A stretch of 64,000 nucleotides of DNA, from NCBI RefSeq assembly GCF_009914755.1, contig NC_060925.1; one strand, 5' to 3'. The stretch is from the human T2T-CHM13v2.0 reference genome, Homo sapiens. The notes under the pieces were generated by a model. It ran no database searches. It had not been told where the DNA came from and saw nothing but the letters and a program-made list of their open reading frames with translations. The position numbers and the translations under genes were made by a program. This document shows positions 52,001-52,143 of the stretch, one piece after another. How positions within the stretch are numbered: position 1 is the first letter of the stretch; each line of letters begins with the position of its first letter.

Positions 52001-52143
52001 TGCTAGTGGTCTATCAGTTTTGTTGATCTTTTCAAAAAACCAGCCCCTGGATTCATTGATTTTTTGAAGGGTTTTTTGTGTCTCTGTTGCCCTCTTAGCA
52101 CAGTGGGCAGTGCGTCAGTCTCATAATCTTAAATCCTTTTTCT
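49095..52143 (-). mobile_element. 5'-truncated L1PA (~PA4/5), ~3 kb, with inverted tRNA-Met fragment at its 5' junction
   Basis: Fragmented ORF2 (ORFs 49320-49571, 49704-50534, 50901-51659, 51656-51850; catalytic FADD mutated to FAYD), 3'UTR and T tail; 14-bp TSD taaatcctttttct at 49095-49108 and 52130-52143. Confidence 0.96.
52089..52129 (+). pseudogene. Retrocopied 5' half of elongator tRNA-Met(CAT)
   Basis: gccctcttagcacagtgggcagtgcgtcagtctcataatct versus recalled tRNA-Met GCCCTCTTAGCGCAG(C/T)GGGCAGCGCGTCAGTCTCATAATCT. Differences are CpG transitions; includes the CAT anticodon; T-arm and 3' acceptor strand are absent. Confidence 0.88.

What the first reader, a model, noticed from the sequence alone, without database searches (positions are those of the whole stretch)
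52080..52143. L1 insertion capped by an inverted 5' half of mature tRNA-Met inside the same TSD (two-template twin priming)
Seen: the minus-strand L1PA stops at 52088. It is followed by 41 nt (52089-52129) matching elongator tRNA-Met(CAT) from its first G through the anticodon arm, on the opposite strand, and then by the second copy of the 14-bp TSD taaatcctttttct (first copy 49095-49108, with an L1-endonuclease-like TTCT/AA site). Known: twin priming normally inverts L1's own 5' part; tailless tRNA 5'-fragment retrocopies and same-orientation U6/L1 chimeras are described separately. Inference: the second nick primed reverse transcription on a tRNA (or tRNA half) in the L1 RNP, RT ran off exactly at the mature 5' end, and the two cDNAs were joined head-to-head. 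An antiparallel tRNA-L1 chimera may belong to an under-recognised class of insertion. The tRNA match is from memory.
Basis: partly seen in the sequence, partly recalled or inferred. Interest (0 to 1): 0.8.

Follow-up and report, generated by a model that had tools for sequence, protein, structure and literature searches.

The report
Known antisense tRNA-Met/L1 chimeric insertion
A truncated L1 retrotransposon is capped by the first 41 bases of methionine tRNA in the opposite orientation, both inside one target-site duplication, but this locus and this class of insertion are already in a published catalogue.

Summary
A minus-strand, 5'-truncated L1 (A-tail 49109-49122, body to 52088) is followed on the plus strand by 41 nt (52089-52129). 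These equal positions 1-41 of human tRNA-Met(CAT) genes except for 2-3 CpG transitions. An exact 14-bp duplication (49095-49108 and 52130-52143) encloses both parts, with a TTCT/AA nick site. Eleven of 11 other L1 copies continue with L1 sequence where this one switches to tRNA, so the junction is blunt.

The topology is what two-template twin priming predicts. The tRNA cDNA is primed at the second nick, runs off at the mature 5' end, and is joined head-to-head to the L1 cDNA.

It is not new. Law & Burns (bioRxiv 2025; Cell Genomics 2026) describe 21 tRNA/LINE-1 chimeras, mostly half-length and antisense, and propose twin priming. Their Table S3 lists this locus (hg38 chr1:187756541-187759519, L1PA5, plus tRNA-Met) as co-arriving in species alignments. 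Doucet et al. 2015 proposed the same mechanism for inverted snRNA/L1 chimeras.

New here: the TSD and nick site of this locus, the true tRNA endpoint (41, not 50), and a census of partial tRNA-Met copies. Low interest.

The parts
49095..49108 (.). Target-site duplication, copy 1 (14 bp). The second-strand nick is inferred on the minus strand between 49095 and 49094.
   Evidence: Exact repeat of 52130-52143. 3 of 5000 random placements reach 14.
49109..49122 (-). L1 poly(A) tail, read as a 14-nt T-run with one C on the plus strand.
   Evidence: Read directly from the sequence. It lies between TSD copy 1 and the L1 3' end.
49123..52088 (-). 5'-truncated L1 body: 3' part of ORF2 plus the 3' UTR. 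Labelled L1PA5 in the published table.
   Evidence: RVT_1 at 50901-51743 (-), E 4.9e-38. The genome search gave 917 first-look candidates, of which 40 were scored at 95-100% identity. 11 of 11 other copies continue as L1 past the equivalent of 52088. The subfamily label comes from the table and was not tested here.
52089..52129 (+). tRNA-Met(CAT) positions 1-41, antisense to the L1, with tRNA position 1 abutting the L1 5' truncation point.
   Evidence: 39 of 41 identical to the chr16 gene and 38 of 41 to the chr6 genes. All differences are CpG transitions.
52130..52143 (.). Target-site duplication, copy 2. The first-strand nick site TTCT/AA lies at 52143/52144 on the plus strand.

Best explanation
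This is one L1-mediated insertion event that used two primers and two templates.

1. ORF2p nicked the plus strand at TTCT/AA. The freed T-rich 3' end primed reverse transcription on the L1 poly(A) tail, giving 2,966 nt of L1 cDNA plus a 14-nt tail.
2. A second nick 14 bp away on the minus strand freed a 3' end that primed reverse transcription on a mature tRNA-Met near position 42.
3. That cDNA ran off at the RNase-P-processed 5' end of the tRNA.
4. The 3' ends of the two cDNAs were joined bluntly, which truncated the L1 inside ORF2.
5. Fill-in of the 14-nt stagger produced the TSD.

Shown here: the parts, their orientation, the endpoints, the TSD, the nick-site motif and the blunt junction. 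Inferred: the order of events, the enzyme, and the nature of the tRNA template. I lean slightly towards an intact tRNA primed internally by partial complementarity of the target overhang to positions 43-50, rather than a pre-cut 5' fragment ending at 41.
For: - Anatomy: TSD, then poly(T), then antisense L1, then sense tRNA 1-41, then TSD. On the minus strand this reads as primer (TSD) followed directly by the complement of tRNA 41 down to 1, which is a cDNA primed at the second nick.
- tRNA identity.
- The TSD is unlikely by chance (3 of 5000).
- Independent loci with the same topology:
  - chr17 copy (L036): tRNA-Met 1-37 antisense to a 144-bp L1 3' end, 4 nt of filler, and a 13-bp TSD that overlaps the tRNA end by 2 nt.
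  - chr3 copy (L051): tRNA-Met 1-46 antisense, abutting a 1.2-kb L1 3' part.
  - chr6 copy (L053), which is in the catalogue.
- Published catalogue: by my count from the strands in the table, 16 of 21 tRNA/L1 rows are antisense, and 15 of those 16 start at tRNA position 1-3. The authors propose twin priming. This locus is flagged as co-arriving.
- For internal priming: the first 8 nt of the TSD align to tRNA 42-50 with 6 matches over 9 columns including one gap. Stand-alone tailless tRNA-Met copies end at the same place (41-45). Nine have exact TSDs of 9-19 bp whose start lies 2-3 nt inside the BLAST-matched tRNA end. This is the pattern Noll et al. 2015 ascribe to internal priming.
Against: - There is no contiguous microhomology at either junction. 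The TSD starts with T where the tRNA has G42. The L1 would continue with T where the tRNA has G1.
- The imperfect TSD-tRNA complementarity is weak. 2.9% of all window 8-mers, and 6.9% of those starting W-A-A, score as well.
- The second nick site (TTTA/GG on the minus strand) is not a consensus EN site.
- The empty orthologous site was not examined here. Co-arrival rests on one flag in a supplementary table.
- One locus cannot separate priming at the nick from end-joining capture of a ready-made tRNA cDNA.
Confidence: 0.8

Rival explanations
1. End-joining capture: a free tRNA-Met cDNA, made elsewhere by a reverse transcriptase, was ligated as filler DNA between the truncated L1 cDNA and the target end during repair. 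No priming occurred at the second nick.
For: Both junctions are blunt, with 0 nt of contiguous microhomology. The chr17 chimera has 4 nt of filler at its L1/tRNA junction.
Against: Capture should give random orientation, yet 16 of 21 catalogued cases are antisense (my count). All four tRNA-Met/L1 cases seen here are antisense with tRNA position 1 facing the L1. By the table's coordinates, the TSD overlaps the tRNA end by 1-5 nt in 5 of the 6 antisense rows that have TSD data, and by 2 nt at chr17. That points to annealing to the target end.
Confidence: 0.1
2. Two separate events: a tailless tRNA-Met retropseudogene and an L1 inserted next to each other at different times.
For: Stand-alone tailless tRNA-Met 5' fragments with the same endpoint exist, for example C23 (L021), C11 (L027), C12 (L029) and C5 (L049).
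Against: The single 14-bp TSD encloses both parts, and neither part has a TSD of its own. The L1 5' end abuts tRNA position 1 with no intervening base. The catalogue flags the two as contemporaneous.
Confidence: 0.03
3. Template switching or RNA ligation, as for U6/L1 chimeras: the RT jumped from L1 RNA onto the tRNA, or a ligated tRNA-L1 RNA was copied.
For: This is the established route for small-RNA/L1 chimeras.
Against: Both routes give the two parts in the same orientation. Here they are opposite, and the plus-strand cDNA would have to copy an antisense tRNA, which is not a known RNA.
Confidence: 0.02

Closest known systems
tRNA/LINE-1 chimeric insertions of Law & Burns (bioRxiv 10.1101/2025.02.02.635956; Cell Genomics 2026, PMC13174262)
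   Same: It is the same locus. Table S3 (mmc3.xlsx), sheet 'tRNA', lists hg38 chr1:187756541-187759519 (-) L1PA5 with chr1:187759520-187759568 (+) tRNA-Met. The offset from the window's T2T coordinates is a constant 653,431 at both the L1 5' end and the tRNA start, and the L1 length agrees (2,979 bp against window 49110-52088). The class features also match: a roughly half-length tRNA, antisense orientation, and twin priming as the proposed route.
   Different: The table gives the tRNA span as 1-50 (a RepeatMasker alignment running into the TSD) and has no TSD or EN entry for this row. Here the templated part ends at 41, the TSD is 14 bp and the nick site is TTCT/AA. The authors favour pre-cut tRNA halves as template. 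An endpoint at 41 lies in the anticodon stem by linear numbering, not in the loop, and there is weak complementarity beyond it, so I lean slightly towards internal priming.
Inverted snRNA/L1 chimeras by twin priming (Doucet et al. 2015, PMC4476161; passages read)
   Same: A 3'-truncated small RNA lies in the opposite orientation to a 5'-truncated L1 within one TSD. The EN consensus is seen only from the L1 side. Internal initiation at the top-strand nick is proposed, helped by complementarity to the insertion site.
   Different: The template there is U5, U1 or another snRNA, not a tRNA.
Classical twin priming (Ostertag & Kazazian 2001; cited, paper itself not read)
   Same: Two nicks, two primers, an inverted 5' segment, and one TSD.
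   Different: Classically both cDNAs copy the same L1 RNA. Here the second template is a tRNA.
Tailless tRNA retropseudogenes (Schmitz et al. 2004, recalled and cited; Noll et al. 2015, PMC5322556, Results section part 1 read)
   Same: The copy starts at the mature 5' end, is 3'-truncated, has no A-tail, and ends where stand-alone tRNA-Met copies end (41-45).
   Different: Stand-alone copies have their own TSD and are primed at the first (EN-consensus) nick. This piece shares its TSD with an L1 and sits at the other nick.

Membership tests
tRNA/LINE-1 chimeric insertion (Law & Burns) | A tRNA-derived segment lies directly 5' of a LINE-1. | tested here: met
   tRNA position 1 at 52089 abuts the L1 end at 52088 with no gap.
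tRNA/LINE-1 chimeric insertion (Law & Burns) | One TSD encloses both parts, at an ORF2p EN-like site. | tested here: met
   14-bp exact TSD and TTCT/AA.
tRNA/LINE-1 chimeric insertion (Law & Burns) | The two parts arrive contemporaneously across species. | not testable with these tools
   No primate genomes are on hand. The published table gives found_by_msa_prediction = 1 for this row.
tRNA/LINE-1 chimeric insertion (Law & Burns) | The usual form: a half-length tRNA from position 1, antisense to the L1. | tested here: met
   Positions 1-41 on the strand opposite the L1.
Twin priming | The 5' segment is inverted relative to the 3' L1 segment, with its RNA-5' end at the internal junction. | tested here: met
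Twin priming | There is complementarity between the second-nick overhang and the template at the priming site. | tested here: inconclusive
   0 nt contiguous. 6 matches over 9 columns with one gap to tRNA 42-50; 2.9-6.9% of control 8-mers do as well.
Twin priming | Both segments derive from the same L1 RNA. | tested here: not met
   The inverted segment is tRNA-Met. This is the two-template variant already proposed.
Tailless tRNA retropseudogene | The tRNA piece alone is flanked by its own TSD. | tested here: not met
   The flanks of the tRNA piece are L1 on one side and the shared TSD on the other.
Tailless tRNA retropseudogene | A 3'-truncated copy with no A-tail that starts at the mature 5' end. 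| tested here: met
U6/L1-type chimera (template switch or RNA ligation) | The small RNA is in the same orientation as the L1. | tested here: not met
   Opposite strands.

The most novel reading that the evidence does not exclude
Antisense tRNA/L1 chimeras may not be copies of angiogenin-type tRNA halves. They could be tailless tRNA retropseudogenes made at the second (top-strand) nick. In that reading an intact mature tRNA is primed internally, by partial complementarity of the target overhang to the region around positions 42-50. The same process at the first nick gives stand-alone tailless copies with the same endpoints. This would merge two described classes and would contradict the tRNA-half template suggested in the catalogue paper. 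The idea was already put forward for snRNAs in 2015.
Probability: 0.4. Interest if true: 0.25.

Novelty: already known. Interest (0 to 1): 0.12.

Why it matters
Such chimeras show that both ends of an L1-made staggered break can prime reverse transcription, and that abundant cellular RNAs can serve as the second template. This bears on how L1 insertions are resolved and how composite retroelements arise. For this locus the point has already been made in print.

Three things are added here:
- The TSD and nick site, which the catalogue left blank for this row.
- A corrected tRNA endpoint (41, not 50).
- The endpoint coincides with that of stand-alone tailless tRNA-Met copies, which is a small argument on the open question of pre-cut half versus internal priming.

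Tried and rejected
- ARAGORN on 51500-52700 found no tRNA gene, as expected for a half molecule.
- The Rfam E-value scan gave only a sub-threshold tRNA hit and chance-level hits to other families, for example CRISPR-DR21 at 21.9 bits against a gathering score of 48.
- No other L1 in the window covers the truncation point, so L1 copies were fetched from the genome instead.
- L029 (C12) looked like a possible chimera because an L1 3' end lies 149 bp away. The tRNA piece has its own 15-bp TSD, so it is a stand-alone copy.
- For the chr3 juxtaposition (L051), no TSD of 8 or more was found. The only 7-mer shared between the flanks is A-rich and lies inside the L1 tail.
- One paper reading failed on term syntax and was re-sent corrected.
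- I built no L1 consensus and made no subfamily assignment of my own.

Full report
**What is there**

On the plus strand the window reads in this order:
- 49095-49108: the 14-mer taaatcctttttct.
- 49109-49122: a 14-nt T-run with one C.
- 49123-52088: antisense L1.
- 52089-52129: 41 nt that are not L1.
- 52130-52143: the same 14-mer again.
- From 52144: unique sequence starting aacagc.

The L1 identity is supported in two ways. An ORF fragment at 50901-51743 on the minus strand matches Pfam RVT_1 at E 4.9e-38. A genome search with 51960-52088 gave 917 first-look candidates, of which 40 were scored at 95-100% identity. In 11 of 11 other copies fetched, the L1 continues past the equivalent of 52088 with its own sequence, starting with T. 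The window switches to G at 52089. The L1 therefore stops exactly at 52088 and the junction is blunt.

**The 41-mer is tRNA-Met**

I searched the 41-mer as a pattern in the window's own assembly, allowing up to 3 mismatches. It matched 6 places and the reversed control matched 0.
- One place is the window itself.
- Four places are called tRNA-Met (anticodon cat) genes by ARAGORN: one on C16 with 2 mismatches and three on C6 with 3 mismatches.
- One place on C23 is not a tRNA gene (see the census below).

In the alignment the match runs from gene position 1 to 41. Every difference is a CpG to TpG or CpA change. The base before position 1 differs from the 5' leaders of all four tRNA-Met genes in that alignment, so the copy starts at the mature 5' end.

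Rfam's tRNA model gives 20.2 bits, below its gathering score of 29. ARAGORN finds no tRNA gene at the site. Both results are expected for half a tRNA.

I did not test 'elongator' against 'initiator'.

**The TSD is real**

The 14-mer is the only word of 8 or more shared by the two flanks. In 5000 random placements of equivalent flank pairs within the window, 3 reached 14.

The plus-strand target reads TTCT/AA at the point where the poly(T) begins. This is an L1 endonuclease-like site. The other nick, inferred from the 14-bp stagger, lies on the minus strand after TTTA and before GG. That is not a consensus site.

**How it most likely arose**

On the minus strand, TSD copy 2 is followed directly by the complement of tRNA positions 41 down to 1. 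That is a cDNA primed by the 3' end freed at the second nick and run off at the tRNA 5' end. On the plus strand, TSD copy 1 is followed by poly(T) and antisense L1, which is ordinary target-primed reverse transcription. The two cDNAs meet head-to-head. This is twin priming with a tRNA as the second template.

The alternatives fare as follows.
- Template switching and RNA ligation give same-orientation chimeras, so the orientation excludes them.
- Two separate insertions are excluded. One TSD encloses both parts and neither part has a TSD of its own.
- End-joining capture of a ready-made tRNA cDNA cannot be excluded from this single locus. It does not explain the orientation bias seen across loci.

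**Already published**

Law & Burns appeared on bioRxiv in February 2025 and in Cell Genomics in 2026. I read passages of both versions, methods sections 8 and 9 of the preprint, and supplement mmc3.xlsx part 2. They report:
- 21 tRNA/LINE-1 chimeras, typically half-length (1-37) and antisense to the L1.
- TSDs of 9-19 bp in all 8 randomly chosen cases.
- Twin priming as the proposed route, with tRNA halves as the suggested template.

Row 2 of their tRNA sheet is hg38 chr1:187756541-187759519 (-) L1PA5 with chr1:187759520-187759568 (+) tRNA-Met:1-50. It was found both by proximity and by species-alignment timing, and its TSD columns are empty. The hg38 minus T2T offset is 653,431 at both the L1 5' end and the tRNA start. 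The L1 length agrees (2,979 bp). The BLAST found only one tRNA-Met-like match on C1. I take these as the same locus, although I ran no liftover.

By my count of the strand columns, 16 of the 21 rows are antisense and 5 are sense. Fifteen of the 16 antisense rows start at tRNA position 1-3.

Doucet et al. 2015 (passages read) proposed twin priming with internal initiation, helped by complementarity to the insertion site. Their cases were inverted, 3'-truncated snRNA/L1 chimeras.

A search for 'twin priming' + 'tRNA' + 'chimeric' returned 10 papers, 8 of them listed. None beyond the Law & Burns work (its versions are merged under one listed entry) appears from its title or abstract to describe tRNA/L1 antisense chimeras.

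**Census of tRNA-Met copies in the assembly**

BLAST of a 73-nt tRNA-Met gene against the assembly gave 35 matches.
- 19 cover at least 66 of the 73 positions. These are genes or full-length relatives.
- 16 are partial copies. I examined all 16.

The 16 partial copies divide as follows.
- **Four abut an L1 in antisense, with the tRNA 5' side facing the L1 5' end:**
  - This locus.
  - C17 (L036): tRNA 1-37, 4 nt of filler, a 144-bp L1, and a 13-bp TSD overlapping the tRNA end by 2 nt. It is in the catalogue.
  - C6 (L053): in the catalogue.
  - C3 (L051): tRNA 1-46, a 1.2-kb L1, no TSD of 8 or more found. No row in the 21-row sheet falls on that part of chr3.
- **Nine are stand-alone copies with exact TSDs of 9-19 bp:** L020, L021, L022, L023, L024, L025, L027, L029, L052.
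- **One has an interrupted TSD:** L049.
- **Two are unclear:** L035, L050.

Stand-alone endpoints cluster at 41-45 (L021, L022, L027, L029, L049, L052, and L035 at 45) and at 49-55 (L020, L023, L024, L025). In the nine with exact TSDs, the TSD start lies 2-3 nt inside the BLAST-matched tRNA end. This is the pattern that Noll et al. 2015 ascribe to internal priming at A-rich single-stranded stretches.

**Half or internal priming?**

This locus ends at 41. By linear numbering of the gene, that is two bases inside the 3' side of the anticodon stem, not in the anticodon loop.

The TSD start has no contiguous match to the tRNA at position 42. It does align to positions 42-50 with 6 matches over 9 columns including one gap. 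That alignment is evidently why RepeatMasker extended the annotation to position 50. The match is weak: 2.9% of all window 8-mers, and 6.9% of those starting W-A-A, score as well.

By the coordinates in the published sheet, the TSD and the tRNA annotation overlap by 1-5 nt in 5 of the 6 antisense rows that have TSD data. To read this I had to allow for TSD columns that appear shifted by one row for several entries.

Short overlaps fit both internal priming and a jump onto the 3' end of a fragment. The question stays open, and I lean slightly towards internal priming.

**Verdict**

The locus and the class are already known, so interest is low.

Noticed in passing
L051:1501-2765 (G000:C3:149078780-149080044): A further tRNA-Met 5' piece (1-46) lies antisense to, and abuts, a 1.2-kb L1 3' part with an A-tail. 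No TSD of 8 or more was found. The flanks look like one interrupted older repeat. No row of the 21-row published tRNA sheet falls on that part of chr3.
   Followed up: partly
L050:1501-1560 (G000:C18:71889020-71889079, minus strand): A tRNA-Met copy spans positions 1-54. Positions 25-54 are 100% identical to the gene. The first 24 nt carry 9 mismatches, 5 of them G to A. The sharp change in divergence within one short copy is unexplained; cDNA editing or a mosaic origin are possibilities.
   Followed up: partly
L021:1501-1544 (G000:C23:36871598-36871641): A stand-alone tailless tRNA-Met 1-41(..44) copy has a TSD of about 20 bp (16 exact). Its endpoint is the same as that of the window's piece, with 3 nt shared between the tRNA end and the TSD start.
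   Followed up: yes
Supplement mmc3.xlsx of PMC13174262, sheet 'tRNA': As read here, the TSD columns of several rows hold coordinates that belong to the next or another row. For example, a chr6:81316914 TSD is printed in the chr5:86372886 row, and a chrX:65017944 TSD in the chrX:107695404 row.
   Followed up: no
window 52029-52069: A sub-threshold Rfam hit to CRISPR-DR21 (21.9 bits against a gathering score of 48, E 0.29) lies inside the L1. I take it as chance.
   Followed up: no
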